Source: an uncultured Alphaproteobacteria bacterium (GTDB lineage: Bacteria > Pseudomonadota > Alphaproteobacteria > RF32 > CAG-239). Taken from it: 64,000 nucleotides of DNA. The DNA lies in the NCBI GenBank assembly GCA_944392155.1, contig CALXVR010000004.1:9645-73644 (forward strand). The letters are read 5' to 3'. Shown one piece after another: positions 15,699-28,845 of this stretch. A program made the translations under genes and the position numbers. Every line of letters starts with the position of its first letter. The stretch's first letter is position 1. Below the pieces are notes generated by a model. It did no database searches. It had not been told where the DNA came from and saw only the letters and a list, made by a program, of their open reading frames with translations.

Positions 15699-17027
15699 AT
15701 GCGACGTTTAATTATAAGTATTATCCTGACCCTGTTGCTTACGCTGTGGGGGCATAGGCTTTATCTGACAGATGTCGGTTTTGACTATAAACTTTTTATC
15801 ATTATCATTACGCTCTCTTATATGATTTGTTATAAGTTGGTGCAGTATTTGGCGCGTTTTAAGATTGTTGAAAATAATTCGCGCATAGATATTGTTTTTG
15901 TGGTTTGCGTCGTGGCTTTTATGTTTGTGCCGATTATGCATATTAATCGTGATGAAATTTCGGTGCAAGAAAACAGGTCTTTGGCTAAATATGTACCGCT
16001 TATTGATGATGAGACGGGGTTGATTAATTATAATTTCGGTAAGGATTTTGAAAACTGGTTTAATGATCGTTTCTTTGGACGGCGGCAATTTATTAAAAAC
16101 AGCAAAGTTATTGATATGCTGATTAATAATGAGATGAAAAACTTTGATGCCATGGCCGGCAAAGAAAATTGGTTGTTTACTAAAAGATGGAATTCCGAGG
16201 ATATGTTCCGCAACAAATATTTGTTTGATGATGAGGAACTTTCGAAAATTAAGCATCGTTTGGAAAGTTTGCAGATTTGGTTGGATAAACGGAACATTAA
16301 GCTCTATTTGATGTTGGTGCCTGATAAAGAGCGTGTTTATGGGGAGTTTTATCCGGATGGATATACTAAAATTAATAAGCAAGCAAAAATTGAACAAGCT
16401 TATGAATTTTTGAAGGAAAATACTCATATTCCGGTTGTTTATCCGATTAAGGCCTTGGAAAAAGCTAAGCAAAAGCATTTGGTTTATTATAAAACAGGAA
16501 CGCATTGGAATCATCGCGGGGCTTATGTGGCTTATCTTGAGATGATGAAAATGCTTAAAAAAGATTTTCCGTCGCTTAGAATTTTGAAAGAAGCTGATTT
16601 TAATATTGAGCCCCAGTTTAGCGCCGATGAGGATATCGCAAATGCTTTGGGAATTGATGCAAAATCAACCTTTCCGAAGGAAGATATGACTTATGATGTG
16701 TTTAAGCTTAAAAAAGAAACAACGACGGTTGAACATGAGTTTGTAAACAAAGAATTACGAATTGAGACCTTTGATTTTGTAAGTAATAATCAAGCTAATA
16801 AGCTTAAAGCCATTTTTTATGCGGATAGTCAGTTTTTGCGAATGAATTGGTATGTGGCGGAGAGCTTCAAGGAGATGCAGCATATCTATGTCGGTTACGG
16901 ACGTGATTTTGATATTCCGTATATGGCTGAAGATATTGAAAATTTTGCACCCGATATATTTGTGATAGCTACAGGCGAGCGTTTTCTTAACCGCTTGATG
17001 AAGATTGAAACTCCCGGAGAAGAATAA
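15699..17027 (+). CDS. AlgJ/AlgX-like (SGNH-like) polysaccharide O-acyltransferase component, membrane-anchored
   Basis: 442 aa with N-terminal TM segments. FENWFNDRFFGRR and YYKTGTHWNHRGAYVAY align with the paralogues at 27721 and 28838 (FE.YYND.FA.RKK; KDTHWN..GAY). Confidence 0.7.
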   Translation: MRRLIISIILTLLLTLWGHRLYLTDVGFDYKLFIIIITLSYMICYKLVQYLARFKIVENNSRIDIVFVVCVVAFMFVPIMHINRDEISVQENRSLAKYVPLIDDETGLINYNFGKDFENWFNDRFFGRRQFIKNSKVIDMLINNEMKNFDAMAGKENWLFTKRWNSEDMFRNKYLFDDEELSKIKHRLESLQIWLDKRNIKLYLMLVPDKERVYGEFYPDGYTKINKQAKIEQAYEFLKENTHIPVVYPIKALEKAKQKHLVYYKTGTHWNHRGAYVAYLEMMKMLKKDFPSLRILKEADFNIEPQFSADEDIANALGIDAKSTFPKEDMTYDVFKLKKETTTVEHEFVNKELRIETFDFVSNNQANKLKAIFYADSQFLRMNWYVAESFKEMQHIYVGYGRDFDIPYMAEDIENFAPDIFVIATGERFLNRLMKIETPGEE

Positions 17028-17038
17028 GGATAAGATTG

Positions 17039-18445
17039 ATGCTGTTTAGTTCTATGACATTTTTGTTTGTGTTTATGCCGGTGGTAATGAGCATTTATTT
17101 GCTCTCTAAAAAAGATATCAGAAATTATGTTTTGTTAGCGGCAAGTATTATCTTTTATGCTTGGGGTGAGCCCAGATATTTGGCGATTATGATTATGACT
17201 ATCGTCGTTACTTACGCCGGAGCCAGAATCGTAGACAGATGTTTGGATGATAAAAAACGCAAATGGGCGATGACTGCTACGATTTTGGTAGATTTAGGGT
17301 TCCTTATTTATTTTAAGTATTTTAATTTTATTGTTGATAATGTTAACGCGGCTTTGCAACTTAATCTTGACTTTATTGATGTGGTTATGCCGATCGGTAT
17401 TTCTTTTTATACTTTTCAGGCCATATCTTATTTGATAGATGTTTATCGTCGGGAAGTTGAAGCACAGGAAGATATTAACAAATTGGCTCTTTATATTGTG
17501 TTGTTTCCGCAGTTAGTGGCAGGACCGATTGTTAAATATCACGATGTTTGTGAGCAGATTGATGACAGAAAGGTTACTTTTGCCGATGTTTCTTTTGGCT
17601 TAAAACGCTTCATTATTGGTTTGGCTAAAAAGGTTTTGATAGCTAATACCTTAGCTGTTGTCGTTGATAGAATCTTTATGCAACAGCCGGAAACTCTTGG
17701 CTTTGGATATGCTTGGCTCGGCATTATAGCCTATATGATACAGCTGTATTTTGATTTTTCAGGATATTCGGATATGGCTATCGGTTTGGGGCGGATGTTT
17801 GGTTTCAGATTCTTGGAAAACTTTAATTATCCCTATATTTCCAAATCAATTTCTGAGTTTTGGCAAAGATGGCATATTTCTTTGGCAACGTGGTTTAAAC
17901 AATATTTATATATTCCGCTTGGTGGAAATCGGGTTTCGCCGGTGCGTACTTATATAAATTTGTTTGTGGTCTTTTTAGTTACCGGTGTTTGGCACGGAGC
18001 TAGTTGGACTTTTGTTCTGTGGGGTGTTTGGAACGCCATCTTTATTTGTTTTGAAAAGTTTGTCGGTTGGCATAAACCTAAAGATGAGAGCCGGTATATT
18101 TCAGCATTAAGACATATCTATGCGATGCTTGTCTTTGTTTTGGGATTGGTTTTTTTCCGCTCCGTTAATATGGATTATGCTTGGGATTATTTGCATCAGA
18201 TGTTTATGCTGAATCAGCCCGAGGTTGTGACGGAAGTTGATTTTGGTATCAACAATAAATTTATTTTAATGTTGATTTTAGGAATTATTTGTTCTGCACC
18301 GATATTTAAGAATATGCTTTATGTAAAGTACGAACGTAAAGTTTTGCGTAGCATCATTAATATCTGGATATTTATCCTCTTTTATTGGTCTACCATATCT
18401 CTTGCATCGTCAACGTATAATCCGTTTATTTATTTCCGTTTCTAG
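17039..18445 (+). CDS. MBOAT family O-acyltransferase (AlgI/DltB/PatA-like)
   Basis: The first codon of the track ORF is TTG 17036, with ATG at 17039. FYTFQAISYLIDVYRR and WQRWHISLATWFKQYLYIPLGGNR carry the MBOAT His. Paralogue of 26315-27718; both end TYNPFIYFRF. Confidence 0.88.
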   Translation: MLFSSMTFLFVFMPVVMSIYLLSKKDIRNYVLLAASIIFYAWGEPRYLAIMIMTIVVTYAGARIVDRCLDDKKRKWAMTATILVDLGFLIYFKYFNFIVDNVNAALQLNLDFIDVVMPIGISFYTFQAISYLIDVYRREVEAQEDINKLALYIVLFPQLVAGPIVKYHDVCEQIDDRKVTFADVSFGLKRFIIGLAKKVLIANTLAVVVDRIFMQQPETLGFGYAWLGIIAYMIQLYFDFSGYSDMAIGLGRMFGFRFLENFNYPYISKSISEFWQRWHISLATWFKQYLYIPLGGNRVSPVRTYINLFVVFLVTGVWHGASWTFVLWGVWNAIFICFEKFVGWHKPKDESRYISALRHIYAMLVFVLGLVFFRSVNMDYAWDYLHQMFMLNQPEVVTEVDFGINNKFILMLILGIICSAPIFKNMLYVKYERKVLRSIINIWIFILFYWSTISLASSTYNPFIYFRF

Positions 18446-18446
18446 G

Positions 18447-18618
18447 AAAATCACGCTTAATGGGAAATTTGGGTGTCGCTGTCGGAATTTTGAAAATTCA
18501 CGTAGGTCATACTACGCTAAAATTTTCAAAATCCTAAGCTTCTACAACTTTCCTCATTAATCGTGATTTTCAAAAGAGGGAGATGGGAAACTTGGGTGTC
18601 GCTGTCGGAATTTTGAAA
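18447..18618. repeat. Palindromic intergenic repeat, family 2, plus 36-nt direct duplication
   Basis: Nested hairpin: AAAATCACGCTTAATGGGAAA (18447-18467) pairs with TTTCCTCATTAATCGTGATTTT (18549-18570). The inner stem is GGAATTTTGAAAATT / AAATTTTCAAAATCC around CACGTAGGTCATACTACGCTA. ATGGGAAATTTGGGTGTCGCTGTCGGAATTTTGAAA (18460-18495) recurs at 18583-18618 with 1 mismatch. Confidence 0.75.
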
Positions 18619-18622
18619 GAGA

Positions 18623-19231
18623 TTATGCATTATGAATTTCTTCCCAAGCTTCCAAAAGCCAAGGGTGAGGTGTTTTAATCTTGTCTTTATCAAGCATCAG
18701 GTTTTCAAAATAACATTTGATAGCATTGTCTAGGGAGACCTCTGCAGCTTTTTTTACTAACGGCATATAAGCCGGAGTATCTTTGCTATCCCAACTTAAT
18801 TTATCTGCTAAAAAGAGAAGTTTATCCAAGTTTGAGGCGCTTTTGCGTAGAGTTGTGTGGCAGTTGATGGCATTAAGAACTTCTTTATCTACAATATTAA
18901 ATGTTTCAACCGCAACAATACGTGATATTCTTTGATGAAGAAGATATGGATTTTCGCGTTCTACGGCAAAAATTTCTAAATCAAGAGCCTCAGCCATCGG
19001 AATGTAATGCTCAACGGGAATAAGCGTGCTTATGTCATGTAAAAGAGCGGCTGTTTTGGCTTGTTCATAATCTATAACAAATCTTTTAGCCAAAGCTAGG
19101 GCATTGTCTTTTACTTTTAGAGTATGTGCTAAAATTTCGGGCTTTTTGTTGGTTGTAAAATTGTGGATGATATTTTCTTCCAGAGAATAAAAATCCGTGC
19201 AAGTAATTGTATTATCAGTCATTCGGTTCAT
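18623..19231 (-). CDS. HD-domain phosphohydrolase (YqeK-like)
   Basis: 202 aa. HTLKVKDNALALAKRF...AKTAALLHDIS carries the His..HD metal-binding pattern of HD-superfamily hydrolases. Confidence 0.7.
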   Translation of the reverse strand: MNRMTDNTITCTDFYSLEENIIHNFTTNKKPEILAHTLKVKDNALALAKRFVIDYEQAKTAALLHDISTLIPVEHYIPMAEALDLEIFAVERENPYLLHQRISRIVAVETFNIVDKEVLNAINCHTTLRKSASNLDKLLFLADKLSWDSKDTPAYMPLVKKAAEVSLDNAIKCYFENLMLDKDKIKTPHPWLLEAWEEIHNA

Positions 19232-19442
19232 TCCTCCTGATGAAATTTTTGGCTCTTGCCGATATGATATTACTATATATAATTGATTTTATTATAAAAA
19301 TCCAGTTTTTTTTGAAAATGGCTAAAATATATGCGTCAAAAATGCGTAAGTTGTTAACAAATATAAACTACTGGTAGAAATTATAAAAAGTTCATTATAT
19401 ATTAAATATAATTAATACTTTATATACAAGTCAGTAAAGAGA

Positions 19443-20693
19443 ATGGACGAAGATTACGGTTTTGAAGCCTCCAAAGCCAAGTTATCAAAACTGAAAGCAG
19501 GCGCCTTGTTTATGAAGATGGGTGCCAAAAAGATAAAAATGGCTTTGGATTTGGTTAAAGATAAACAAGATGAGATAGATGTTGTGGTGTGGATTGCTCC
19601 TTCTTCTTTTTTGGGGTGGGAGGGGTATACAAAAGCAATAGACGATAGTTTGGTCGGCTTGCGTAAGCAAATCTGTTTCTTTTCTGTTGAAAATATTTCT
19701 TGTTCTGATGTGCATTATTTACAACTTTATTCTTTGGCGGAAAGGTATAAAGTTTTTTGTGTCGTGGATGAAAGCATATCAATCAAAAATAGTGAGGCCG
19801 GGCGGACAAAACGTTTGCTGATGATGCGAAATTTGTTTGATTATCGTCTGATATTATGTGGGTTGCCGTTGACGCAAGGTTTGGTCGATTTGTATTCACA
19901 GATTGAATTTATGCATCCGTCTGTCCTTAATATGTCAGAGACACAATTTTTGAATACATATTTATCTCCTTATGATGACGGGACAACTCGAAAATGGTCT
20001 AAACCCGAAAATGAAAAAATTTTGATTGAGCAGATGCGTCCGTTTATTTTTGAGTGTGATTTGGACAGTACTCAAAAAATTAATTATGTTGATCTTTGTT
20101 TTGATTTGACCCCAAGAGAAGCCGAAAGTTATGAAGAAGAAAAAAATGCTTTTTTGAAGGATAAGGAGCAGGTCGTATTTATGGAGGTAGTACAACGATT
20201 TCAACATATTTATACGATTGCAAAAAACAAAGTTGAGGGTTTGTTTAAGCTAGTGGATGAGATTTTGGCAAGAGGTGAAAAGGTCATCATATATCTTAAG
20301 TATCTTGATGAAATTCATTTTTTTAAGGAATGCGGTTTTTTGCAACGGGGAAAATATGTTGTTCTTTCCGGTAGGTGCAACAAGAAAAAAGCAGTTAAGT
20401 TATTCGGGCAGAGAATTAATATTATGTTTTCTACCTATGGGGTTGATTCTCGCGGTTTAGATTTATGCACATGCAATAATATTATTTATTTTTCGCAGAC
20501 TTTTGATTATAAATGTAAGGTGCAATGCTTGTATAATGTTTATCAGTCTTATACGGGAAAATGTATTAATGTTTATAATCTTTGGATAAATACGGGATTA
20601 GATAAGCTTATCAGGCAGAATTTGCATCGTAAGAAAAATGTCCTTTCCAATGTTTGCCGAATGATTTCAAAGGAGGAGGCTTTGGCACTATGA
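19443..20693 (+). CDS. SNF2-family helicase-like protein with degenerate ATPase motifs
   Basis: 416 aa. Blocks Ia VVVWIAPSSFLGW, II VVDESISIKN, III RLILCGLPLTQG, IV EKVIIYLKYL and V IMFSTYGVDSRGLDL are present. Block I reads MGAKKIKMAL (no GxGKT) and block VI reads QCLYNVYQSYTG (no Arg). Confidence 0.65.
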   Translation: MDEDYGFEASKAKLSKLKAGALFMKMGAKKIKMALDLVKDKQDEIDVVVWIAPSSFLGWEGYTKAIDDSLVGLRKQICFFSVENISCSDVHYLQLYSLAERYKVFCVVDESISIKNSEAGRTKRLLMMRNLFDYRLILCGLPLTQGLVDLYSQIEFMHPSVLNMSETQFLNTYLSPYDDGTTRKWSKPENEKILIEQMRPFIFECDLDSTQKINYVDLCFDLTPREAESYEEEKNAFLKDKEQVVFMEVVQRFQHIYTIAKNKVEGLFKLVDEILARGEKVIIYLKYLDEIHFFKECGFLQRGKYVVLSGRCNKKKAVKLFGQRINIMFSTYGVDSRGLDLCTCNNIIYFSQTFDYKCKVQCLYNVYQSYTGKCINVYNLWINTGLDKLIRQNLHRKKNVLSNVCRMISKEEALAL

Positions 20694-21991
20694 AGAAATA
20701 TTTGGATAAAAACGTATATGAGGCTTTACAGGAAAGGCTGAAGTTTATTTTTGATAATTTTGATAATATTTATGTTTCTTTTTCCGGCGGCAAAGATAGT
20801 GGTTTGTTGCTGAATATGGTTTTGAGTTATAAGAGAAGAAACAAAATTACTAAAAAAATAGGCGTTTTTCATCAGGATTTTGAGGCACAATATCAGACAA
20901 CTACGGATTTTGTTACCAGAATGTTTGAAAATAATATGCGCGATATTGAGCCTTATTGGGTTTGTTTGCCTATGGGATCTCGTTGCGCGGTTAGTAATTA
21001 TCAGATGTATTGGTATCCGTGGGATCCGGACCAAAAAGATTTGTGGGTGCGTCCGATGCCCCAAATGCCTTATATTATTAATATGGATAATAATCCGTTT
21101 GATTTTTATCGTTACAAAATGGTTCAGGAAGATTTATATGCGGAATTTGGTGATTGGTACTCCAGACAGAAAAAAGGCAAGACAATTTGTCTGTTAGGTA
21201 TTCGGGCTGATGAATCTCTTAATCGATATCGGGCATATGCAAATGATCGTAAAACCATTATGAAAGGAAATCAGTGGACGACCAAAATGGGTGAAAACTG
21301 GTGGAATGCATATCCGATTTATGATTGGACCACTAAAGATGTATGGATTGCGAACGGTAAGTTTGATTATGATTATAATCGGATTTATGATTTATTTTGG
21401 AAAGCCGGACTTTCTATTCATCAGATGAGGGTGGCCAGTCCGTATCACGAAAGTGCTAAAGAAAGCCTTAATTTGTATAGGGTTTTGGAGCCGTCTACTT
21501 GGGTACGCATCGTTTCTCGCGTGCAAGGAGCAAATTTTGGTGCAATTTACGGCGGGTCCAGAGCGCTGGGGTCGCGCAAGATTGAATTGCCTCCGGGGCA
21601 TACGTGGCGCAGTTATGTTAAGTTTTTGTTGGCGACATTGCCTGATGCCATGCGGCGAAATTATATTGAGAAGTTTAAAACCTCCATTCGGTTTTGGTGG
21701 AAAAAAGGCGGCGTGGTTGATGAAGAAGCTATTAAAGAATTGGAGGCTTGTAATTATCCTATTCGACACAATGGCAAGAGCAACTACAAAAGCAGTAAAG
21801 AAAAAATTGTGTTTTTGGGAACGCCGGATCATACGGATGATATTAAATCTACCATTGATATTCCGTCATGGAAAAGAATGGCTGTTTGTATTTTGAAAAA
21901 TGATCATTTGTGCAAATATATGGGTTTTTCACAGACACAGAAACAAAACTTAAGACAAAAGGAATTAATCGAAAAATATAGAAATTTATGA
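20690..21991 (+). CDS. PAPS-reductase-like PP-loop ATP pyrophosphatase with C-terminal extension (IbrA-like, DUF3440-type)
   Basis: Start set at ATG 20690 (GGAGG RBS, ATGA overlap with the upstream stop). PP-loop YVSFSGGKDSGLL, LGIRADESLNR, and a ~200-aa C-terminal region typical of IbrA-like proteins. Confidence 0.75.
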   Translation: MKKYLDKNVYEALQERLKFIFDNFDNIYVSFSGGKDSGLLLNMVLSYKRRNKITKKIGVFHQDFEAQYQTTTDFVTRMFENNMRDIEPYWVCLPMGSRCAVSNYQMYWYPWDPDQKDLWVRPMPQMPYIINMDNNPFDFYRYKMVQEDLYAEFGDWYSRQKKGKTICLLGIRADESLNRYRAYANDRKTIMKGNQWTTKMGENWWNAYPIYDWTTKDVWIANGKFDYDYNRIYDLFWKAGLSIHQMRVASPYHESAKESLNLYRVLEPSTWVRIVSRVQGANFGAIYGGSRALGSRKIELPPGHTWRSYVKFLLATLPDAMRRNYIEKFKTSIRFWWKKGGVVDEEAIKELEACNYPIRHNGKSNYKSSKEKIVFLGTPDHTDDIKSTIDIPSWKRMAVCILKNDHLCKYMGFSQTQKQNLRQKELIEKYRNL

Positions 21992-22001
21992 GGTGTGGTA
22001 A

Positions 22002-22520
22002 ATGAACGAATTTGTAAGTCCTGTTTATAATGTCAGAGCTATTCCGCTTGAGAAAATCAAGGCGAATAACTACAACCCCAATAAGGTTGCTCCGCCGGAG
22101 ATGAAGCTTTTGGAAATATCTATTTGGGAAGATGGTTTTACCCAACCGATAGTCTGTTATTATGACAAGGCTAATGACGAGTATATCGTTGTGGACGGGT
22201 TTCACCGTTTTACAACGATGCTGACGAGTGAAAGAATCAGAAATCGCGAAAAAGGCAAAATGCCGGTGGTGGTTATTGATAAAGAACTTGGCGAACGTAT
22301 GGCGTCAACTATTCGTCATAACCGTGCGCGCGGCAGCCATAGCGTGGATTTGATGAGTAATATTGTGGCTGAACTTTTGGAGATGGGAAAAAGTGATGCA
22401 TGGATTTGTCGTAACATTGGAATGTCGGCAGATGAGTTATTGCGCTTAAAACAAATTACGGGATTAGCTAATTTGTTTAAAGATGAGGAATTTTCCAAGA
22501 GCTGGGAAGTTACTACATAA
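22002..22520 (+). CDS. ParB N-terminal (ParB/Srx nuclease-like) domain protein, IbrB-like
   Basis: 172 aa starting 10 nt after the upstream stop. NYNPNKVAPPEMKLLEISIWEDGFTQPIV, VVDGFHRF and IRHNRARGSH are present. Confidence 0.75.
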   Translation: MNEFVSPVYNVRAIPLEKIKANNYNPNKVAPPEMKLLEISIWEDGFTQPIVCYYDKANDEYIVVDGFHRFTTMLTSERIRNREKGKMPVVVIDKELGERMASTIRHNRARGSHSVDLMSNIVAELLEMGKSDAWICRNIGMSADELLRLKQITGLANLFKDEEFSKSWEVTT

Positions 22521-22613: not shown

Positions 22614-23951
22614 ATGGATAATTTGAATGATGTGTCTTTAATTTGGGGAATGAATCCGCAAATGTTGGCAATCGTGATTATGTCTGTTTGTTATCTGATT
22701 ATTTTCAGCGAAAAAATTAACCGCGCGATTATTGCTTTGCTGGGTGCCGGTGTAATGATTGTTTCCGGAATTTTGACACAGTCGACGGCACTGGAAGGAA
22801 TCGACTTCAACACGCTGGCTTTGCTGACGGGAATGATGATTATTGTCGGGATTGCCGAAAAATCCGGTATGTTTCAGTTTGTTGCGGTCTGGGGCGCTAA
22901 GAAGGTAAAAGCTTCGCCGCGCGGCCTGCTTGTTGTGTTGCCTTTGGTAACGGCTGTTTTTTCGGCTTTTCTTGACAATGTAACGACGGTGCTGTTGATT
23001 GCTCCCGTGACGTTTCAGATTACCCGGACGCTGAAAATAAATCCGTATCCGTATCTGATTTTGGAGATTTTTGCTTCAAACATCGGCGGTACGGCAACGC
23101 TTATCGGTGATCCGCCGAATATTCTTATCGGCTCGTCCGTCGGTTTATCTTTTATGGATTTTGTTTATCATTTGACGCCGGTTGTCGTTGCGACGATGAT
23201 TGTGTTGCTTATTTTGGCTGATTTGGTCTGGGGACGCCGGCTGACAACCCACGACGAGTACCGGGCGGCGGTTATGGAGATGAAGGCGGCAGACTGCATT
23301 GTTGACAAAGGGCTTCTTTATAAGTCGCTGTTTGTTCTTGCCTGTGTTATAGCCGCGTTTATTTCTGCAAGGCAGATTAACCTCGATAACGGTACGATTG
23401 CTCTGGTTGGTGCGGCGGTTTTGTTGCTGCTTTACAGCTGGAAGTTCAAAGGAGAAGAAAGAGACGCCAAGGTTCAGGAAGTTTTCGGTCTGGTTGACTG
23501 GACGACGATATTCTTCTTTACGGGATTGTTCGTGATTGTTTACGGTCTGGAAGAAACCGGTGTACTCCGCGCATTGGGAAGCTGGTTTCTGGAGTTGACC
23601 GGCGGCAGCCTGACGGCCATGACTTATTTGGTTTTGTGGAGTTCGGCAATACTTTCCAGTGCGATTGACAATATTCCTTTTGTGGCAACAATGATTCCGA
23701 TGATTAAGTCTATGGAAGCCTCTGTCGGTGGGCGTGAAGTAATGATGCCTGTTTGGTGGGCATTGTCTTTAGGCGCATGTTTTGGCGGAAACGGAACACT
23801 TATCGGCGCTTCAGCCAATGTGGTCGTTGCCGGAATGGCTATGCGTGAAGGCCACCCAATCAAGTTTTTGGGATTTTTGATTTGGTCAATTCCCGTTATG
23901 CTTTTGAGTGTGGCTATTGCTAATATCTTCTTGTTTTTAGAATATAATTAG
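22614..23951 (+). CDS. ArsB/NhaD-family (ion transporter superfamily) permease
   Basis: Start set at ATG 22614 (GGAGG RBS). ~445 aa and polytopic, with the motifs FLDNVTTVLL, GGTATLIGDPPN and GGNGTLIGASANVV. Confidence 0.75.
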   Translation: MDNLNDVSLIWGMNPQMLAIVIMSVCYLIIFSEKINRAIIALLGAGVMIVSGILTQSTALEGIDFNTLALLTGMMIIVGIAEKSGMFQFVAVWGAKKVKASPRGLLVVLPLVTAVFSAFLDNVTTVLLIAPVTFQITRTLKINPYPYLILEIFASNIGGTATLIGDPPNILIGSSVGLSFMDFVYHLTPVVVATMIVLLILADLVWGRRLTTHDEYRAAVMEMKAADCIVDKGLLYKSLFVLACVIAAFISARQINLDNGTIALVGAAVLLLLYSWKFKGEERDAKVQEVFGLVDWTTIFFFTGLFVIVYGLEETGVLRALGSWFLELTGGSLTAMTYLVLWSSAILSSAIDNIPFVATMIPMIKSMEASVGGREVMMPVWWALSLGACFGGNGTLIGASANVVVAGMAMREGHPIKFLGFLIWSIPVMLLSVAIANIFLFLEYN

Positions 23952-24081: not shown

Positions 24082-24966
24082 ATGAAAGGTATCATTTTAG
24101 CTGGAGGAAGTGGTTCCAGACTTTATCCGCTGACCAAAACAACCAGTAAACAACTTTTGCCGGTTTATGATAAGCCGATGATTTATTATCCTTTGTCAAC
24201 TTTGATGTTGTTTGGTATCAGAGAGATTTTGATTATTTCCACACCGCAAGATACTCCGAATATTGAAAAGCTTTTCGGTGACGGTAAGCAACTTGGCTTG
24301 GATATTTGTTATAAAATTCAAGATGAGCCGAAAGGTATTGCGCAAGCTTTTACCATCGGTGCCGATTTTATCGGAAATGATGATGTTTGCTTGATTCTGG
24401 GTGATAATATTTTCTATATGGGCGAGCAATTGAAGCTCTTTCGTGAAGAGATTGCCAAGAATGTCGGCGGAACTGTTTTCGGATATCATGTTTCGGATCC
24501 GGAACGTTTCGGAGTGGTTGAGTTTGATAAAAACCACAAAGCTATTTCCATTGAAGAAAAACCCAAACAACCTAAGTCTAATTATGCTGTTGTCGGTTTG
24601 TATTTTTACAAGTCTGACGTGGTTGAAAAAGCCCGTAAATTAAAGCCTTCTGCCAGAGGCGAGCTTGAAATTACGGATTTGAACCGTGAGTATTTGGAAG
24701 AAGGACGCTTAAATGTGGTTACAATGAAGCGCGGTAATGCTTGGCTTGATGCCGGTACGCCGCAATCTTTGTTGGACGCTTCTAACTTTATCGGCATTAT
24801 TGAAAAACGTCAGGATTTGAAAATTGCTTGTATTGAAGAAATTGCATATAAGCGCGGTTTTATTGATGATGCCCAAATGCTTAAGCTTATTGATATCTTA
24901 AAAGACGGTGTTGATTATAAGAGTTATTTGAAACGCGTGTATGAGGATAGCCATGAAGATTATTAA
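24082..24966 (+). CDS. rfbA: Glucose-1-phosphate thymidylyltransferase
   Basis: Start at ATG 24082 (GAGAGGA RBS; the track ORF starts at an upstream TTG). MKGIILAGGSGSRLYPLT and the EKP motif (SIEEKPKQPKSNYAV) are present. Confidence 0.93.
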   Translation: MKGIILAGGSGSRLYPLTKTTSKQLLPVYDKPMIYYPLSTLMLFGIREILIISTPQDTPNIEKLFGDGKQLGLDICYKIQDEPKGIAQAFTIGADFIGNDDVCLILGDNIFYMGEQLKLFREEIAKNVGGTVFGYHVSDPERFGVVEFDKNHKAISIEEKPKQPKSNYAVVGLYFYKSDVVEKARKLKPSARGELEITDLNREYLEEGRLNVVTMKRGNAWLDAGTPQSLLDASNFIGIIEKRQDLKIACIEEIAYKRGFIDDAQMLKLIDILKDGVDYKSYLKRVYEDSHEDY

Positions 24967-25498
24967 TACGGCAATTGAAGGGGTTTATGTTATTGAACCT
25001 CAGGTTTTTGAGGATAACCGCGGTTATTTTTTTGAAAGCTATAATAAGCAAAAAATGGATGAAGCCGGTTTGACGTATAATTTTATTCAAGATAACCAGT
25101 CTATGTCCAAATATGGCACAATTCGCGGTATCCATTTCCAGAAAGGTGAGTTTGCTCAAGCAAAATTGGTTCGCGTATTGGAAGGAACAGTGCTGGATGT
25201 TGCTGTTGATTTGCGCAAAGGCTCTAAGACTTTCGGAAAATATGTGGCGGTTGAACTTTCAGCAGAAAATAAGCGCCAGCTTATGATTCCGAGAGGTTTC
25301 GGACATGGTTTTTCCGTGTTGTCGGAAACAGCCGTGTTCACTTATAAATGTGATAATGTATATAACAAAGAATCTGAGGGCGGTATTCGCTTTGATGATC
25401 CGGATATTCATGTGGATTGGAAGATTAAGCCCGAAGAAGCCATTTTGTCAGAAAAAGATAAAAATGCGCCATTTTTGAAGGATGTTACATGTTTTTAG
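24953..25498 (+). CDS. rfbC: dTDP-4-dehydrorhamnose 3,5-epimerase
   Basis: Start at ATG 24953 (GAGGA RBS). VFEDNRGYFFESY, RGIHFQ and KLVRVLEGTVLDVAVDLR are present. Confidence 0.92.
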   Translation: MKIINTAIEGVYVIEPQVFEDNRGYFFESYNKQKMDEAGLTYNFIQDNQSMSKYGTIRGIHFQKGEFAQAKLVRVLEGTVLDVAVDLRKGSKTFGKYVAVELSAENKRQLMIPRGFGHGFSVLSETAVFTYKCDNVYNKESEGGIRFDDPDIHVDWKIKPEEAILSEKDKNAPFLKDVTCF

Positions 25499-26325
25499 TC
25501 GTTGGAGCAAACGGGCAACTCGGAAACGAGTTGCGCCTTATTTTGGGTGATGCTGCCGAGTATGTGGATCGTGAGCAGTTGGATATTACGGATGAAAAAG
25601 CCGTAAAAGCTTTTGTTAAGCCAGAAAAATATGCCGCAATTATTAACTGTGCGGCTTATACCGCGGTTGATAAAGCAGAAGCTGATGCTCAGCTGGCAGA
25701 AAAAATTAATGTGGATGGTCCGAAGAATTTAGCAGAAACAGGTGTGCCTTTGGTACAAGTTTCAACGGATTATGTCTTTGACGGTTTGGGACACAGACCA
25801 TATAAAGAAGATGATGAAACTCATCCGCAATCTGTTTATGGTGTTACGAAGTTGGCCGGCGAAAAGGCTGTTTTGGAGAAAGCAAGCGGATGTTTTGTTA
25901 TTCGTACGGCGTGGTTATATTCAACTTTCGGCAATAATTTTGTTAAAACGATGCGTCGTTTGGGGGCTGAACGTGAAAATCTGACCGTGGTTTTTGATCA
26001 GATTGGAACGCCGACTTATGCACGAGATTTAGCGGAAGCTATTGTGGCTATGTTGCCCAAACTTAAAACAGGCGTGAAAGAAGTTTATCATTTCTCAAAC
26101 GAGGGCGTTTGTTCGTGGTACGATTTTGCTGTCGAAATTATGAAATTATCAGGCTTGAAGTGTAAGGTTAAGCCTATTGAAAGCAAAGATTATCCGACAC
26201 CGGCGAAGAGACCTTTTTATTCGGTTCTGAATAAAGGAAAGATTAAGGCTGATTTTGGTTTGGAAATCAGACATTGGTCCGAGAGTGTACGAGATTGTGT
26301 GGAGAAGTTGAATAATGGTCTTTAG
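25489..26325 (+). CDS. rfbD: dTDP-4-dehydrorhamnose reductase
   Basis: 278 aa. VVGANGQLG, STDYVFDG, YGVTKLAGE and QIGTPTYARDLA. Overlaps the rfbC stop. Confidence 0.9.
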   Translation: MFLVVGANGQLGNELRLILGDAAEYVDREQLDITDEKAVKAFVKPEKYAAIINCAAYTAVDKAEADAQLAEKINVDGPKNLAETGVPLVQVSTDYVFDGLGHRPYKEDDETHPQSVYGVTKLAGEKAVLEKASGCFVIRTAWLYSTFGNNFVKTMRRLGAERENLTVVFDQIGTPTYARDLAEAIVAMLPKLKTGVKEVYHFSNEGVCSWYDFAVEIMKLSGLKCKVKPIESKDYPTPAKRPFYSVLNKGKIKADFGLEIRHWSESVRDCVEKLNNGL

Positions 26326-27718: not shown

Positions 27719-27720
27719 TA

Positions 27721-28845
27721 ATGGCAAAAATATTGCGTATATATTTTTTGTTGCCGACCATATTAATTTTATTTATGGTTTTTTATCCGTTTGCTGCAAA
27801 TTTGTTTTATACAAATACAGAAATTATGGATAATCGTCCGTTGCATGAAAAGCCGACAGAGTTTTCCAGAACTTATGCGAAGGAATTTGAAGATTATTAT
27901 AACGACAGCTTTGCCGGTCGAAAGAAATTGATTTCTAAATATGTGAAATTGCAGGGAAAATTAAATATAGATACCGGACAATATTTTTATGGTCAGAACG
28001 GTTGGATGTTTTATGATTCCATTAAAGCAAACAACGGTAATACCTTGGTTGACTATTATGCCGAAGTTTATTTTGATGATGAAGATTTGGCAAAAATGGT
28101 GAAGGGTATTAATATGGCATATGATTTTTATGCCCAAAGAGGAATTAAATATGTTATTTTTGTTGCTCCCAACAAAGAAAATGTTTATTCCGAATTTATG
28201 CCTGAAAGAATGCAGAAAATCAGAAAATCTAATATTTCGCGTATGGACAAGGCTGTTGAATATTTGAAAAAGCATGTTAAAGCCGAAATTGTTAATGCAA
28301 AGCCTGCCATGTTGTCCGCTAAAGATAAGGTTGCTCAGGATTTGTATTTTAAAAAGGATACTCATTGGAATAATATTGGAGCTTATGTCGGATTTTCCTC
28401 TTTGGCTCAGGTATTGAATCAGTGGGGTGCCGGTATAAAGCTACCGTCTTTGGCTGCTTTGGATATTACTTCGGGCGAACTTCGCGATATGGATATGGAA
28501 GCCGGAGCTAAAGAGTGGACTTATGAGGTGGCATATCGTCCGAATTTGAATAGTGTTTGTGTTCAATTTGAGCAAAATGAGCGGGTTAGTGTTTGTAAGA
28601 CTTCCGGCACGGGAAATTCTCAAAAACTTTTAGTCTGGACAGATTCTTTTGCATCTGCGTTGAAGCCATATTTTAATCGTTCTTACAAAACAGTCTTTTA
28701 CTCGGTTGCAGGTTTGAAGAAACTTTCTGAAATTGAGGCTATTGTTGATGAAACTAAACCAAATATTGTGGTTGATGAGTTAGTTGAAAGATATTTTCAA
28801 CGTTTTGCAAATTATCCGAGAATTTTCGGAGGAGAGTATGACTAA
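27721..28845 (+). CDS. AlgJ/AlgX-like O-acyltransferase component (membrane-anchored)
   Basis: 374 aa with an N-terminal TM segment. FEDYYNDSFAGRKK, VAPNKENVYSEFMP and KKDTHWNNIGAYVGF (D-x-H motif). Confidence 0.75.
   Translation: MAKILRIYFLLPTILILFMVFYPFAANLFYTNTEIMDNRPLHEKPTEFSRTYAKEFEDYYNDSFAGRKKLISKYVKLQGKLNIDTGQYFYGQNGWMFYDSIKANNGNTLVDYYAEVYFDDEDLAKMVKGINMAYDFYAQRGIKYVIFVAPNKENVYSEFMPERMQKIRKSNISRMDKAVEYLKKHVKAEIVNAKPAMLSAKDKVAQDLYFKKDTHWNNIGAYVGFSSLAQVLNQWGAGIKLPSLAALDITSGELRDMDMEAGAKEWTYEVAYRPNLNSVCVQFEQNERVSVCKTSGTGNSQKLLVWTDSFASALKPYFNRSYKTVFYSVAGLKKLSEIEAIVDETKPNIVVDELVERYFQRFANYPRIFGGEYD

What the first reader, a model, noticed from the sequence alone, without database searches (positions are those of the whole stretch)
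19232..22520. AT-rich three-gene cassette: SNF2-like protein + IbrA-like PAPS-reductase/PP-loop protein + IbrB-like ParB-domain protein (candidate uncharacterised DNA-modification or defence module)
SEEN: 19443-20693, 20690-21991 and 22002-22520 are co-directional and tightly packed. There is an ATGA start/stop overlap at 20690-20693 with a GGAGG RBS inside gene 1, and a 10-nt gap before gene 3. A ~210-bp very AT-rich leader precedes them. The cassette looks more AT-rich than its surroundings (hand count 14 G+C in 20461-20520 versus 28 in 23041-23100). It sits between a palindromic repeat element with a divergent HD hydrolase on one side and a housekeeping-type permease on the other, so it looks island-like. 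Gene 2 carries the PP-loop YVSFSGGKDSG of the PAPS-reductase/ATP-pyrophosphatase family plus a long C-terminal extension. Gene 3 is a ParB/Srx-type domain with VVDGFHRF and IRHNRARG. ESTABLISHED: this pair corresponds to the IbrA/IbrB type, annotated only as co-activators of prophage gene expression in E. coli, with unknown biochemistry. DndC of DNA phosphorothioation belongs to the same PAPS-reductase-like family. From memory (to be verified), a PAPS-reductase-domain gene is also a component of type 4 BREX. ParB/Srx domains are NTP-binding DNA clamps or nucleases. INFERENCE: operonic coupling to an SNF2-type DNA-translocase-like protein points to a DNA-directed modification or restriction-like conflict system. 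I know of no experimentally characterised system with exactly this composition.
Basis: partly seen in the sequence, partly recalled or inferred. Interest (0 to 1): 0.8.

Follow-up and report, generated by a model that had tools for sequence, protein, structure and literature searches.

The report
Domesticated phage IbrAB module, dead helicase
This three-gene operon of unknown biochemistry is common in phages, and one lineage of gut Alphaproteobacteria has kept it in the chromosome with the helicase motor motifs destroyed but all three genes under strong selection, so it is not a recently acquired AT-rich defence island.

Summary
The three ORFs, the ATGA overlap, the GGAGG site and the quoted motifs are all real. 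Pfam supports SNF2-like, PAPS_reduct+DUF3440 (IbrA-type) and, weakly, ParB_N (IbrB-type); PHROG 2159 supports the last strongly.

The claim that the cassette is AT-rich and island-like fails. Its GC is at the 18th percentile of same-size windows, its tetranucleotide usage is typical, and its GC3 is at the window mean.

The linkage of the three genes is conserved. All 69 genome loci with enough sequence keep the order SNF2-like, IbrA, IbrB, and so do 44 IMG/VR viral contigs and cultured phages of Lactobacillus, Streptococcus and Flavobacterium. The composition is therefore a widespread phage module that is annotated but uncharacterised. In phages it also has a fourth small ORF.

In phages the helicase has canonical motifs (GTGKT, RxxRxGQ). 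The window copy belongs to a monophyletic clade found in 68 gut alphaproteobacterial species genomes. In this clade motifs I and VI are destroyed and the small ORF is lost. The trio sits in recurring housekeeping neighbourhoods, and all three genes are under purifying selection (dN/dS 0.04, 0.005, 0.013).

There is no PADLOC match, no nuclease partner and no conserved cysteine in IbrA.

Best reading: a domesticated phage IbrA/IbrB module, probably a PP-loop-dependent DNA-directed modification or regulatory system, with an SNF2 pseudo-ATPase as scaffold. The biochemistry is inferred, not shown.

The parts
19232..19442 (+). AT-rich leader or promoter region of the operon, with no ORF of 60 aa or more on the + strand. 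The phage-type fourth small gene is absent here.
   Evidence: GC is 22.7%. There is one sigma-70-like match, TTGCCG-16-TATAAT at 19256-19283, but such matches are no more frequent than in shuffles. Only short ORFs of 56 aa or less are present. tblastn with the phage small protein finds nothing in the window.
19443..20693 (+). Gene 1: a minimal SNF2-fold protein (416 aa, two RecA-like lobes, no accessory domains) with degenerate ATPase motifs. It is a predicted pseudo-ATPase.
   Evidence: Pfam SNF2-rel_dom at 7.9e-07. The family profile hits Ino80 at 4e-19 and SsoRad54 1z63 at 7e-18. The AF2 model has pLDDT 80, and Foldseek gives TMq 0.65-0.71 to Rad26/CSB, ISWI and DDM1. dN/dS is 0.04 against L001.
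19521..19535 (+). Remnant of helicase motif I (Walker A): G27-A-K-K-I31 in place of the canonical G-T-G-K-T.
   Evidence: Family alignments. All 68 gut-alphaproteobacterial loci lack GxGK[ST]. All phage-type loci with a complete match have it.
19767..19778 (+). Helicase motif II, D109-E-S-I. It is retained here, but is DD or DN in 25 of 90 clusters of the degenerate clade.
   Evidence: D109 is invariant.
20523..20555 (+). Remnant of helicase motif VI: Q361-CLYNVYQSYT-371 in place of QSLxRIYRxGQ. Both arginine fingers and the GQ are lost.
20672..20679 (+). Shine-Dalgarno-like GGAGGAGG for gene 2, inside the 3' end of gene 1. The ATGA overlap at 20690-20693 suggests translational coupling.
   Evidence: Abutting or overlapping g1/g2 coordinates recur in most loci.
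20690..21991 (+). Gene 2: an IbrA/YbdN-type protein (433 aa). It has an N-terminal PP-loop ATP-pyrophosphatase (PAPS-reductase-like) domain and a C-terminal DUF3440.
   Evidence: Pfam DUF3440 at 3.8e-78 and PAPS_reduct at 1.9e-09. PHROG 2302 at 2e-111. It is 36% identical to E. coli YbdN and 44-49% identical to phage IbrA. dN/dS is 0.005.
20780..20800 (+). PP-loop F31-SGGKDS-37, invariant from phages to E. coli YbdN.
22002..22520 (+). Gene 3: an IbrB/YbdM-type protein (172 aa). It has a ParB/Srx-fold N-domain followed by a short helix-turn-helix-like tail.
   Evidence: Pfam ParB_N at 3.2e-05, just below the cut-off. PHROG 2159 at 6e-78. It is 48% identical to E. coli YbdM, E = 2e-51. It matches Spo0J and Noc weakly in PDB, with an HTH-like match at residues 121-154. 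dN/dS is 0.013.
22191..22208 (+). V64-DGFHR-69. This occupies the position of the ParB 'GERR' arginine patch and resembles the DGxHR variant recalled for DndB.
   Evidence: The HMMER alignment to Spo0J places vvdgfhrf opposite lvagerry. D65, G66, H68 and R69 are invariant.
22314..22334 (+). R105-HNRARG-111. This signature is invariant in all IbrB/YbdM-type proteins compared.

Best explanation
The cassette is a chromosomally fixed, vertically inherited descendant of a widespread phage module. In phages the module has four parts: a small protein of unknown function, a minimal SNF2 helicase, an IbrA-type PP-loop enzyme and an IbrB-type ParB/Srx-fold protein.

SHOWN. The gene linkage is conserved. 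The phage versions have intact helicase motifs and sit in phage early, lysis-proximal or packaging-proximal regions, in two metagenomic phage contigs alongside DNA methyltransferase and restriction-alleviation genes. The window copy belongs to one monophyletic clade found in at least 68 gut alphaproteobacterial species genomes. In that clade the small gene is lost and helicase motifs I and VI are destroyed. All three genes remain under strong purifying selection, and the trio sits in housekeeping neighbourhoods.

INFERRED. IbrA uses its invariant PP-loop to adenylate a substrate with ATP, so that a nucleophile can then replace the activated group. It has no conserved cysteine, so a sulfur relay or Fe-S chemistry of the DndC or CysH kind is unlikely. 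An amine or oxygen nucleophile, or a partner-supplied group, is more likely. IbrB, with its ParB/Srx nucleotide-binding fold and HTH-like tail, brings or activates IbrA on double-stranded DNA. Other ParB-like partners do this for DNA-modifying enzymes. The SNF2-fold protein contributes DNA binding or scaffolding. It acts as a motor in phages, where a whole genome must be marked quickly, and as an ATPase-dead scaffold in these bacteria.

The likely output is a covalent mark on DNA. In phages this would protect against host restriction. In this lineage it would have been co-opted as an orphan epigenetic or regulatory function, which fits the only genetic phenotype known for IbrAB (activation of prophage eib genes in E. 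coli).

The confidence given (0.5) is for the whole statement. I hold the evolutionary part at about 0.85 and the DNA-modification part at about 0.4-0.45.
For: Linkage. SNF2-like, IbrA and IbrB lie in the same order in all 69 genome loci with enough downstream sequence. IbrA and IbrB adjoin the helicase in 38 of 44 IMG/VR loci, and each of the other six lacks sequence on at least one side of the helicase match. The order is either H-A-B or A-B-H. The same trio occurs in Lactobacillus phage CR28, Streptococcus phage Pika and Flavobacterium phage FCL-2.

Phage origin. Four of four canonical-motif relatives looked up lie in phage or prophage DNA carrying holin, amidase, integrase, terminase, portal and capsid genes. 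Two of them also carry N6_N4_Mtase, Lar_restr_allev or Tad2-like genes. PHROG matches are 2e-111 and 6e-78.

Dead motor. Ninety of 115 homologue clusters and 68 of 72 genome loci lack GxGK[ST] and RxxRxGQ. The degenerate clade was monophyletic in 30 of 30 resamplings, and canonical phage sequences are its sister and outgroups.

Still functional. For window vs L001, dN/dS is 0.040, 0.005 and 0.013 for the three genes. RmlA gives 0.025, and dS is comparable at 0.54-0.94. Length is conserved at 416-420 aa, and the AF2 model shows an intact two-lobe fold.

Vertical inheritance. About five recurring housekeeping syntenies were found, including FlgK-FlgI | trio | MnmA and Pgi-MutL-ZIP | trio | AKR-LpxK-WaaA. 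These map onto mostly contiguous clades of both gene trees. IbrA and IbrB identities (75-92%) are comparable to those of the NagA-like amidohydrolase (69-80%) between the same genomes. Composition is ordinary.

Enzyme inference. The PP-loop FSGGKDS and some 50 other residues are invariant from phages to E. coli YbdN. IbrB has invariant DGxHR and RHNRARGxH.

Precedents for a ParB-like partner of a DNA-modifying enzyme. A phage T-dioxygenase needs its ParB on dsDNA (PMC13229309). DpdB works with DpdA (PMC12839542). DndB accompanies DndC (PMC10853773). IbrB also matches a PHROG of DNA methyltransferases, phrog_498, over residues 10-149.
Against: No biochemical or modification data exist for any IbrA/IbrB protein in the sources searched, so DNA as the substrate is an inference from the partners. 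The AF2 model of IbrA was poor (pLDDT 52), so DUF3440 remains structurally uninterpreted. IbrA/IbrB pairs work without any helicase in E. coli K-12 (ybdNM) and in S. thermophilus phage CHPC1230, so the helicase is accessory. A basic residue (K30, or R in some members) and D109 survive in the degenerate helicase, so nucleotide binding cannot be excluded. Very strong conservation in a reduced genome could equally fit a housekeeping RNA or metabolite function. Whether every genome of the lineage carries the trio was not testable, because only presence was scored.
Confidence: 0.5

Rival explanations
1. The trio is a DNA-binding transcriptional co-activator or anti-silencing complex that leaves no covalent mark on DNA. 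IbrB binds DNA like a ParB, the SNF2-fold protein remodels or occludes nucleoid proteins, and IbrA has a regulatory nucleotide-consuming role.
For: The only genetic phenotype on record is activation of prophage eib genes by the IbrAB island. This is known here only from the title of Sandt et al. 2002, cited in PMC8065619. E. coli ybdNM is itself tightly repressed by CitR/YbdO and H-NS-linked (PMC9068703). IbrB has an HTH-like tail. The motor motifs are dispensable in this clade.
Against: IbrA's catalytic PP-loop and many other residues are invariant across phages, Enterobacteria and Alphaproteobacteria, and its dN/dS is 0.005. That points to an enzyme with a defined substrate. In two metagenomic phage contigs the module sits with DNA methyltransferase and anti-restriction genes rather than regulators. 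A regulatory phenotype could itself result from DNA modification.
Confidence: 0.15
2. The trio is an active anti-phage defence system, either modification-based self/non-self discrimination or abortive infection.
For: There is domain-level resemblance to defence components: ZorD 2e-12, DpdE 6.6e-09, DndC 4.1e-07 and BrxP 1.1e-04. PAPS-reductase and ParBc proteins appear as candidate effectors in PANGU-like systems (bioRxiv 10.64898/2026.04.06.716658). Phage-derived modules are often recruited for defence.
Against: There is no nuclease or other effector in or next to the operon, and no defence-island neighbours in any of the recurring contexts. No PADLOC family matches IbrB, and there are no system-level matches. 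Conservation is extreme and inheritance vertical over 68 species, with housekeeping-like dN/dS. That is the opposite of the patchy, fast-evolving pattern typical of defence genes. The canonical form is encoded by the phages themselves.
Confidence: 0.1
3. The trio is a housekeeping RNA (tRNA or rRNA) modification enzyme, or a sulfur or small-molecule enzyme. This includes the reading of IbrA as an auxiliary 'CysH' PAPS reductase, with IbrB acting as a ParB/Srx-fold kinase-like partner.
For: The PP-loop superfamily is dominated by RNA-modifying and metabolite-activating enzymes. Weak NCBIfam similarities are to TilS, TtcA and LarE, and the fold matches to LarE, CysD and Asn synthetase cover the PP-loop region only. 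Phage IbrA-type genes are counted as cysH sulfur AMGs, with a DUF3440 clade noted (bioRxiv 10.1101/2021.01.05.425418). Conservation is housekeeping-like. From established knowledge, ParB/Srx-fold proteins include sulfiredoxin and serine kinases.
Against: IbrA has no invariant cysteine. The thiosulfonate chemistry of CysH, which needs its C-terminal ECGLH cysteine (established knowledge), and the DndC cysteine dyad (PMC10853773) are therefore both excluded. The obligatory partners are a ParB-fold protein with an HTH-like tail and, in phages, an active SNF2 DNA motor. Those are DNA-directed proteins. The phage neighbourhood contains DNA methyltransferase and anti-restriction genes.
Confidence: 0.12
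4. The cassette is a recently acquired genomic island or decaying prophage remnant, with gene 1 on its way to becoming a pseudogene.
For: The family is of phage origin. Gene 1 has degenerate catalytic motifs. Gene 1 has the lowest GC of the three genes, 35.4%. In one synteny class terminase genes lie a few genes upstream.
Against: Composition and GC3 are ordinary. There is no integrase, tRNA or att-like repeat. The trio is present and intact in 68 species genomes, and its synteny classes track the gene tree. dN/dS of gene 1 is 0.04-0.10, with dS equal to that of neighbouring rmlA. Gene 1 keeps full length and an intact fold.
Confidence: 0.03

Closest known systems
[quoted passage not shown]
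   Same: The two-gene core has the same architecture: PP-loop + DUF3440, followed by a ~170-210 aa ParB-fold protein with DGxHR and RHNRARGxH. IbrA is 36% identical to YbdN and IbrB is 48% identical to YbdM. Biochemistry is unknown in both.
   Different: E. coli ybdNM has no SNF2-like gene and is controlled by the adjacent LysR repressor CitR (PMC9068703). Here a dead SNF2-fold gene is translationally coupled upstream, and no regulator is adjacent.
Phage helicase + 'PAPS reductase' + 'ParB-like partition protein' module (Lactobacillus phages CR28/phiAQ113, Streptococcus equinus phages such as Pika, Flavobacterium phage FCL-2, many IMG/VR contigs; PHROGs 62, 2302 and 2159)
   Same: The same three families occur, usually in the same order and with overlapping or abutting genes. 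IbrA is 44-51% and IbrB 67-79% identical to the closer phage versions (lower in the more divergent viral loci). The helicase is 27-50% identical (31% to CR28) and of the same minimal size of about 390-415 aa.
   Different: The phage helicases keep GTGKT, DES and RxxRxGQ. Many phage-type loci also carry a fourth small ORF (82-107 aa; phrog_5809/8389, unknown function) at the 5' end. The window copy has lost both and sits among chromosomal housekeeping genes.
DndB/DndC of the Dnd DNA phosphorothioation system
   Same: Both pair a ParB-superfamily protein with a PAPS-reductase-like PP-loop ATP pyrophosphatase that acts on DNA (PMC10853773). The DGxHR-type motif is recalled for DndB from memory and was not tested here. 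There is a weak DndC profile hit.
   Different: The DndC score is 23.9 bits against a cut-off of 290. IbrA lacks the DndC cysteine dyad and has no invariant Cys at all. No DndA, DndD or DndE is encoded in or next to the cassette. DUF3440 is absent from DndC.
ParB-like partners of other DNA-modifying enzymes: DpdB with DpdA (7-deazaguanine Dpd system, which also has the SNF2-like DpdE), ParB activators of phage thymine dioxygenases, and ParB-fused DNA methyltransferases
   Same: The logic is the same: a ParB-fold protein enables a base-modifying enzyme on dsDNA (PMC13229309; PMC12839542). Gene 1 gives weak DpdE hits. IbrB matches the DNA-methyltransferase PHROG 498 over residues 10-149.
   Different: The catalytic partner here is a PP-loop enzyme, not a TGT, a dioxygenase or a methyltransferase. 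No DpdA or DpdC is present. The resemblance is one of working logic, not of membership.
BREX type 4 BrxP (PAPS-reductase domain protein)
   Same: Both have a PP-loop or PAPS-reductase-like domain in a DNA-conflict context (PMC12839542).
   Different: The PADLOC BrxP hit covers only the 26-residue PP-loop (18.6 bits). No PglZ, BrxC or BrxL, no DUF4007 fusion and no Cys-rich region are present.

Membership tests
IbrA/IbrB (YbdN/YbdM) type pair | IbrA architecture: an N-terminal PP-loop/PAPS_reduct domain plus a C-terminal DUF3440 | tested here: met
   PF01507 at 1.9e-09 and PF11922 at 3.8e-78, covering 180 of 182 profile positions. It aligns end to end with E. coli YbdN (36% identity) and with phage IbrA.
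IbrA/IbrB (YbdN/YbdM) type pair | An adjacent, co-directional small ParB-fold protein with the IbrB signature (NYNPN, DGxHR, RHNRARGxH) | tested here: met
   It is 48% identical to YbdM, E = 2e-51. The signature residues are invariant. The gap after gene 2 is 10 nt.
IbrA/IbrB (YbdN/YbdM) type pair | Function: activation of (pro)phage gene expression | not testable with these tools
   This is a genetic phenotype reported only for E. coli ECOR-9, and the paper is not held in the library.
SNF2 family ATP-dependent DNA translocases | A two-lobe RecA-like core with SNF2-specific sequence and fold | tested here: met
   Pfam SNF2-rel_dom is above the cut-off. The profile hits Ino80 at 4e-19 and SsoRad54 at 7e-18. 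Foldseek gives TMq 0.65-0.71 to Rad26, ISWI and DDM1.
SNF2 family ATP-dependent DNA translocases | Motif I (Walker A, GxGK[ST]) | tested here: not met
   The window has GAKKI. All 68 gut-alphaproteobacterial loci lack the motif, whereas phage-type relatives have GTGKT.
SNF2 family ATP-dependent DNA translocases | Motif VI arginine fingers (QxxxRxxRxGQ) | tested here: not met
   The window has QCLYNVYQSYT. The motif is absent throughout the clade and present in all complete phage-type copies.
SNF2 family ATP-dependent DNA translocases | Motif II (DExx) | tested here: met
   The window has D109-E-S-I. D109 is invariant, but E is replaced by D or N in 25 of 90 clusters of the clade.
Dnd phosphorothioation (DndB/DndC) | DndC equivalog score and its characteristic cysteine dyad | tested here: not met
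   TIGR03183 scores 23.9 bits against a cut-off of 290.4. There is no invariant Cys in IbrA. The dyad is described in PMC10853773.
Dnd phosphorothioation (DndB/DndC) | Accompanying DndA (cysteine desulfurase), DndD and DndE genes | tested here: not met
   The ORFs from 12.5 to 28.8 kb are NagB/NagA-like, an alpha/beta hydrolase, AlgX/MBOAT, HD, CitMHS, RmlACD and MBOAT/AlgX. None of the recurring neighbours in other species whose families were identified is a Dnd gene.
Assimilatory PAPS reductase (CysH) | A catalytic C-terminal cysteine (ECGLH) that forms the thiosulfonate intermediate (established knowledge) | tested here: not met
   No cysteine is conserved across IbrA-type proteins. The PP-loop is a full SGGKDS of the ATP-pyrophosphatase type.
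BREX type 4 | BrxP together with PglZ, BrxC and BrxL/BrxHII | tested here: not met
   The BrxP hit is 18.6 bits over residues 19-44 only. No such neighbours are present.
Dpd 7-deazaguanine system | The DpdA (TGT-like) transglycosylase with DpdB and DpdC | tested here: not met
   There are only weak DpdE helicase-domain hits for gene 1. No TGT-family gene lies in or next to the cassette.
Any system in PADLOC-DB v2.0 | Full-length matches of all components to one system's models | tested here: not met
   Gene 3 has no hit. Genes 1 and 2 have only partial, domain-level hits to different systems.

The most novel reading that the evidence does not exclude
The helicase/IbrA/IbrB module encodes a so far undescribed, PP-loop (adenylation)-dependent covalent DNA modification that phages use against restriction. 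One lineage of gut Alphaproteobacteria captured it once, disabled the motor, dropped the small fourth subunit, and has since kept it as a lineage-wide orphan epigenetic system. That would be a chemical counterpart of orphan methyltransferases such as CcrM or Dam. It would also explain the 20-year-old 'co-activator of prophage gene expression' phenotype, the E. coli K-12 y-genes ybdN/ybdM, and the many phage 'cysH AMG' annotations.
Probability: 0.3. Interest if true: 0.85.

Novelty: new variant of a known kind. Interest (0 to 1): 0.58.

Why it matters
IbrA/IbrB-type pairs are very common. More than 8000 protein clusters matched here, and the pairs occur in E. coli K-12 (ybdNM), in the Listeria core genome and in hundreds of phages. 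Yet they have no known biochemistry, and phage copies are often counted as sulfur-metabolism auxiliary genes.

This locus adds three things.

(1) The helicase, IbrA and IbrB form one conserved functional unit, with a fourth small gene in phages.

(2) The unit is primarily a phage module that sits near methyltransferase and anti-restriction genes, and IbrA has no conserved cysteine. Both facts argue against the sulfur-metabolism reading and for a nucleic-acid-directed enzyme.

(3) The gut alphaproteobacterial clade is a natural experiment. The motor motifs and the small subunit were lost while the rest stayed under very strong selection. This separates what is needed for the core activity (IbrA, IbrB and the SNF2 fold as scaffold) from what is needed only in the phage setting (ATP-driven translocation).

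If the product is a new DNA mark, it would be a new class of DNA modification and a clear case of a host adopting a phage counter-defence tool. If not, the locus is still a well-supported example of an SNF2 pseudo-ATPase retained by selection.

Tried and rejected
(1) PADLOC, NCBIfam and PDB sequence searches found no named system or solved homologue. There were only domain-level hits, and IbrA has no solved relative by sequence.

(2) The AlphaFold2 model of IbrA was poor (pLDDT 52). The only homologues that could be submitted were 76-95% identical alphaproteobacterial sequences plus one 49% sequence. Its Foldseek search matched only the ~85-residue PP-loop core (LarE, CysD, Asn synthetase), with no hit at E <= 0.001. 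DUF3440 remains structurally uninterpreted.

(3) A profile search with a diverse IbrA alignment, meant to widen the alignment, again returned almost only the alphaproteobacterial clade.

(4) Literature searches on IbrA/IbrB, DUF3440, ybdN/ybdM and PAPS reductase + ParB found only annotations, the CitR regulation study and the sulfur-AMG reading. No biochemical characterisation turned up. The recent ParB-CTPase-fold survey (PMC12704722) contains none of the search terms PAPS, phosphoadenosine, sulfotransferase, IbrB, YbdM or DUF3440. The original Sandt et al. 2002 paper is not held.

(5) Compositional island. Rejected.

(6) Pseudogene status for gene 1. Rejected on dN/dS, conserved length and intact fold.

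(7) The HD hydrolase as a fourth component. Rejected, because it is divergent and conserved upstream only in the window's own synteny class.

(8) The upstream hairpin/repeat element as an island boundary. Rejected, because it lies beyond the HD gene between two convergent gene ends, and the only copies found anywhere are its own two adjacent repeats.

(9) Mycobacteriophage Gaia gp102, annotated 'exonuclease/helicase' upstream of its IbrA, does not align convincingly with gene 1.

(10) Promoter and terminator scans gave nothing above chance.

Full report
OBSERVATION. The ATGA overlap at 20690-20693 is real and is preceded by GGAGGAGG at 20672-20679. The gap before gene 3 is 10 nt, and the 211-bp leader is very AT-rich at 22.7% GC.

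Profile searches support the family calls.
- Gene 1 matches SNF2-rel_dom above Pfam's cut-off and Helicase_C weakly.
- Gene 2 matches DUF3440 (3.8e-78) and PAPS_reduct (1.9e-09).
- Gene 3 matches ParB_N just below the cut-off, but PHROG 2159 'ParB-like partition protein' at 6e-78.
- A profile of the gene 1 family hits Ino80 (4e-19) and the Sulfolobus SNF2 core 1z63 (7e-18).
- An AlphaFold2 model of gene 1 (pLDDT 80) superposes on Rad26/CSB, ISWI and DDM1 motor cores with TMq 0.65-0.71.

COMPOSITION AND 'ISLAND' STATUS.
- The cassette has 36.5% GC against 39.3% for the window. Same-size windows have an sd of 2.9%, so the cassette is at the 18th percentile.
- Its tetranucleotide distance from the window is at the 39th percentile.
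- GC3 of the three genes (0.35, 0.37, 0.42) brackets the ORF mean of 0.37 +/- 0.07.

There is no tRNA or integrase nearby. The neighbours are NagB/NagA-like genes, an alpha/beta hydrolase, an AlgX-like + MBOAT pair, an HD protein, a CitMHS transporter, RmlA/C/D and a second MBOAT + AlgX-like pair. The palindromic element at 18446-18618 is real: a 36-nt direct repeat present twice, 22-nt inverted arms, and a fold with z = -4.5. It lies between the convergent 3' ends of the MBOAT and HD genes and is not adjacent to the trio.

GENE LINKAGE ELSEWHERE. A scan of one genome per species (GTDB) with a gene 1 family alignment returned 72 loci. tblastn shows SNF2-like, IbrA-like and IbrB-like genes in that order in every locus with enough downstream sequence. 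That is 69 loci; the other three are cut by contig ends.

Sixty-eight loci come from uncultured gut Alphaproteobacteria, including 'Proteobacteria bacterium CAG:495', Candidatus Scatocola and 'uncultured Azospirillum sp.' bins. NCBI places Ca. Scatocola in Rhodospirillaceae incertae sedis. The window is 95-100% identical at protein level to one such MAG, L001.

In IMG/VR, 44 viral loci encode a gene 1 relative. IbrA and IbrB adjoin it in 38 of them, and each of the other six lacks sequence on at least one side of the helicase match. The order is either helicase-IbrA-IbrB or IbrA-IbrB-helicase. A permuted order with conserved linkage is a good sign of functional coupling.

Cultured phages show the same set.
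- Lactobacillus phage CR28 has helicase, PAPS reductase and 'co-activator of prophage gene expression'.
- Streptococcus equinus phage Pika has the same three.
- Flavobacterium phage FCL-2 has helicase, ParB and PAPS reductase.

IbrA-IbrB also occur without a helicase, in S. thermophilus phage CHPC1230 and as E. coli K-12 ybdN-ybdM. Listeria lmo1309/lmo1310 is listed as a core-genome pair (PMC7020466). The composition is therefore not rare. It is a widespread phage module that is annotated but uncharacterised.

TWO FORMS OF THE MODULE. In 115 homologue clusters of gene 1, 24 have canonical motifs in all three positions: GTGKT, DESITIKN and RxYRxGQ. Ninety have lost both motif I and motif VI, and 25 of those have also lost the glutamate of motif II.

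The window protein has GAKKI in place of GTGKT and QCLYNVYQSYT in place of QSLxRIYRxGQ. Among the genome loci, all 68 gut-alphaproteobacterial copies are degenerate. The four others (Arcobacteraceae, Holosporaceae, Melioribacteraceae and Opitutales MAGs) are canonical. Every IMG/VR copy with a complete match and all three cultured-phage helicases are canonical.

The four canonical relatives whose contigs I looked up all lie in phage or prophage DNA. That DNA carries holin, amidase, integrase, terminase, portal and capsid genes, and in one case a polyvalent ART protein, a Toprim-DnaB primase-helicase and ERF. Two of them also carry DNA methyltransferase, Lar restriction-alleviation or Tad2-like genes near the module.

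A neighbour-joining tree puts the 90 degenerate clusters in one clade in 30 of 30 resamplings. Canonical phage sequences are its sister and outgroups. The motifs were therefore lost once.

Many phage-type loci also have a fourth conserved small ORF at the 5' end of the module. It is 82-107 aa long, belongs to phrog_5809/8389 of unknown function and has no Pfam match. tblastn detects it in 25 loci, including FCL-2 gp06 and the four canonical bacterial loci. It does not detect it in the most divergent viral group, and it is absent from the window and from all 68 degenerate loci.

THE DEGENERATE FORM IS A FIXED, SELECTED CHROMOSOMAL OPERON. In the gut Alphaproteobacteria the trio sits in about five recurring neighbourhoods made of housekeeping genes.
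- FlgK-FlgN-rod-binding-FlgI | trio | MnmA and an ABC-F protein.
- M16 peptidases-Pgi-MutL-ZIP | trio | aldo-keto reductase, LpxK, Kdo transferase and DUF374.
- NagB/NagA, alpha/beta hydrolase and HD | trio | CitMHS and RmlACD. This is the window's class.
- Two further classes.

These synteny classes fall into mostly contiguous clades of both the IbrA+IbrB tree and the SNF2-like tree, with class C in two blocks. Pairwise distances of the two trees are correlated, with Spearman r = 0.58. Between the same genomes, IbrA (75-82%) and IbrB (80-92%) are as conserved as the NagA-like amidohydrolase (69-80%). The SNF2-like protein (35-58%) behaves like a fast-evolving protein such as the alpha/beta hydrolase (49-53%).

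For the least saturated pair (window vs L001) the values are:

| gene | dN/dS |
|---|---|
| gene 1 (SNF2-like) | 0.040 |
| gene 2 (IbrA) | 0.005 |
| gene 3 (IbrB) | 0.013 |
| flanking rmlA | 0.025 |

dS is similar for all four, 0.54-0.94. Gene 1 is therefore not a decaying pseudogene. It is a constrained protein that has given up its ATPase motifs, with length and fold preserved.

WHAT THE SEQUENCES SAY ABOUT MECHANISM. I compared IbrA across phages of Firmicutes, Bacteroidota and Actinobacteria, E. coli YbdN and the Alphaproteobacteria. The PP-loop FSGGKDS and about 50 other positions are invariant, including D63, E65, G170-x-R172, E175-S176, R179 and Y208-P209-x-x-D212. No cysteine is invariant.

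This argues against CysH-type PAPS reduction, which needs the C-terminal catalytic Cys (established knowledge). It also argues against DndC-type chemistry, which uses a cysteine dyad (PMC10853773). It leaves the generic PP-loop reaction: ATP-dependent adenylation of an oxygen on the substrate, followed by displacement.

IbrB keeps an invariant NYNPN, a DGxHR at the position of the ParB 'GERR' arginine patch (HMMER alignment to Spo0J), and an RHNRARGxH signature. It is followed by an HTH-like segment.

ParB-fold partners of DNA-modifying enzymes are now documented.
- A phage thymine dioxygenase needs its ParB specifically on dsDNA (PMC13229309).
- DpdB works with DpdA (text of PMC12839542).
- DndB accompanies DndC.
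- IbrB also matches a PHROG of DNA methyltransferases, phrog_498, over residues 10-149.

Add an active SNF2 motor in the phage form and a neighbourhood of methyltransferase and anti-restriction genes. The most economical reading is then a DNA-directed modification module that phages use to mark their own DNA. One bacterial lineage would have co-opted it, with the SNF2 fold retained as a DNA-binding or scaffold subunit. This last chain is inference. Nothing here shows DNA as the substrate or any modified nucleotide.

COMPARISON WITH KNOWN SYSTEMS. Membership in the IbrA/IbrB (YbdN/YbdM) type is met on architecture, signature motifs and adjacency. Gene 1 is a member of the SNF2 fold family but fails two defining catalytic features, motifs I and VI. 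It should not be filed as an ATP-dependent translocase.

Dnd, type 4 BREX, Dpd and Zorya are resemblances at domain level only. Scores are far below cut-offs, for example DndC at 23.9 against 290 bits. BrxP matches over the PP-loop only. The defining partners (DndA/D/E, PglZ/BrxC, DpdA, ZorAB) are absent. No PADLOC family matches IbrB.

In the literature library IbrA/IbrB appear only as annotations. They are described as possible virulence factors (PMC4541368), as targets of the CitR repressor in E. coli (PMC9068703), or as a DUF3440-bearing clade of viral 'cysH' sulfur AMGs (bioRxiv 10.1101/2021.01.05.425418). The original genetic paper is known to me only by its title, as cited in PMC8065619.

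VERDICT. It is a real, conserved and uncharacterised functional unit that is probably DNA-directed. It is not a defence island, not a novel composition, and its 'translocase' is predicted to be dead.

What is new is the variant. It is a phage-derived helicase/IbrA/IbrB module captured once, stripped of its motor motifs and its small fourth gene, and kept under strong purifying selection in at least 68 gut alphaproteobacterial species. I rate it a new variant of a known but biochemically unknown kind, with interest about 0.58. The evolutionary statements rest on direct computation and I hold them at about 0.85. The biochemical statement (PP-loop-dependent DNA modification) I hold at about 0.4-0.45.

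LIMITS.
- Only presence was scored, so universality in the lineage is not shown.
- Trees are neighbour-joining on protein distances.
- dS is saturated for all but the closest pairs.
- The IbrA model was too poor to interpret DUF3440.
- The contexts of three of the four canonical bacterial loci (L051, L059, L069) were not annotated.
- Loss of ATPase activity is predicted from motifs and has not been measured.

Noticed in passing
window 18446-18618: An intergenic element between the convergent 3' ends of the MBOAT gene (17036-18445, +) and the HD gene (18623-19231, -). It has a 36-nt direct repeat present twice (18460-18495 and 18583-18618) and 22-nt inverted arms, and folds into a long hairpin (dG -54.7 kcal/mol, z = -4.5). 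The window holds only these two copies, and none of the 130 fetched loci has an exact copy. It is probably a bidirectional terminator or a REP-like element.
   Followed up: partly
L077 9769-10017; L084 and L086 9751-10017; L085 1888-2136; L079 (phage FCL-2) 3825-4148: A conserved small ORF (82-107 aa; phrog_5809/8389, unknown function; no Pfam match) sits at the 5' end of the phage-type helicase/IbrA/IbrB module. It often overlaps the next gene and follows whichever gene comes first. tblastn detects it in 25 loci. It is absent from the window and from all 68 gut-alphaproteobacterial loci. It is possibly a fourth subunit, lost together with the helicase ATPase motifs.
   Followed up: partly
window 15699-18445 and 26315-28845: Two paralogous gene pairs, each an AlgX-like SGNH domain protein plus an MBOAT acyltransferase, flank the region on either side of rmlA/rmlC/rmlD (24082-26325). 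The window's first MBOAT is about 47% identical to the second-copy MBOAT in L001. This suggests a surface-polysaccharide O-acylation locus.
   Followed up: partly
L084 6329-7474 and 18503-18703; L086 3698-4123, 15064-15903 and 18644-19066: In two metagenomic phage contigs, the canonical module lies on the same contig, several kb from DNA methyltransferase genes, Lar-type restriction-alleviation genes and a Tad2-like anti-defence gene, downstream of the integrase and repressor genes.
   Followed up: no
L081 (E. coli K-12 NC_000913.3 634747-636569): E. coli K-12 ybdN-ybdM is an IbrA/IbrB-type pair without a helicase. It lies next to the LysR repressor citR and near dsbG and ahpCF. In Listeria monocytogenes the equivalent pair, lmo1310/lmo1309, is listed as a core-genome locus and was guessed to be a toxin-antitoxin pair (PMC7020466).
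   Followed up: partly
L049 4635-6413 (also L054, L055, L056, L065): In one synteny class of the gut Alphaproteobacteria, phage terminase small- and large-subunit genes lie three or four genes upstream of the trio. This could be a gene-transfer-agent-like or prophage remnant.
   Followed up: no
   Followed up: no
L083 (Mycobacterium phage Gaia) 5308-6207: The IbrB-type protein of mycobacteriophage Gaia carries an extra N-terminal domain of about 125 aa, annotated 'ectoine synthase/ParB multidomain protein'. The gene upstream of its IbrA is not an SNF2 relative.
   Followed up: no
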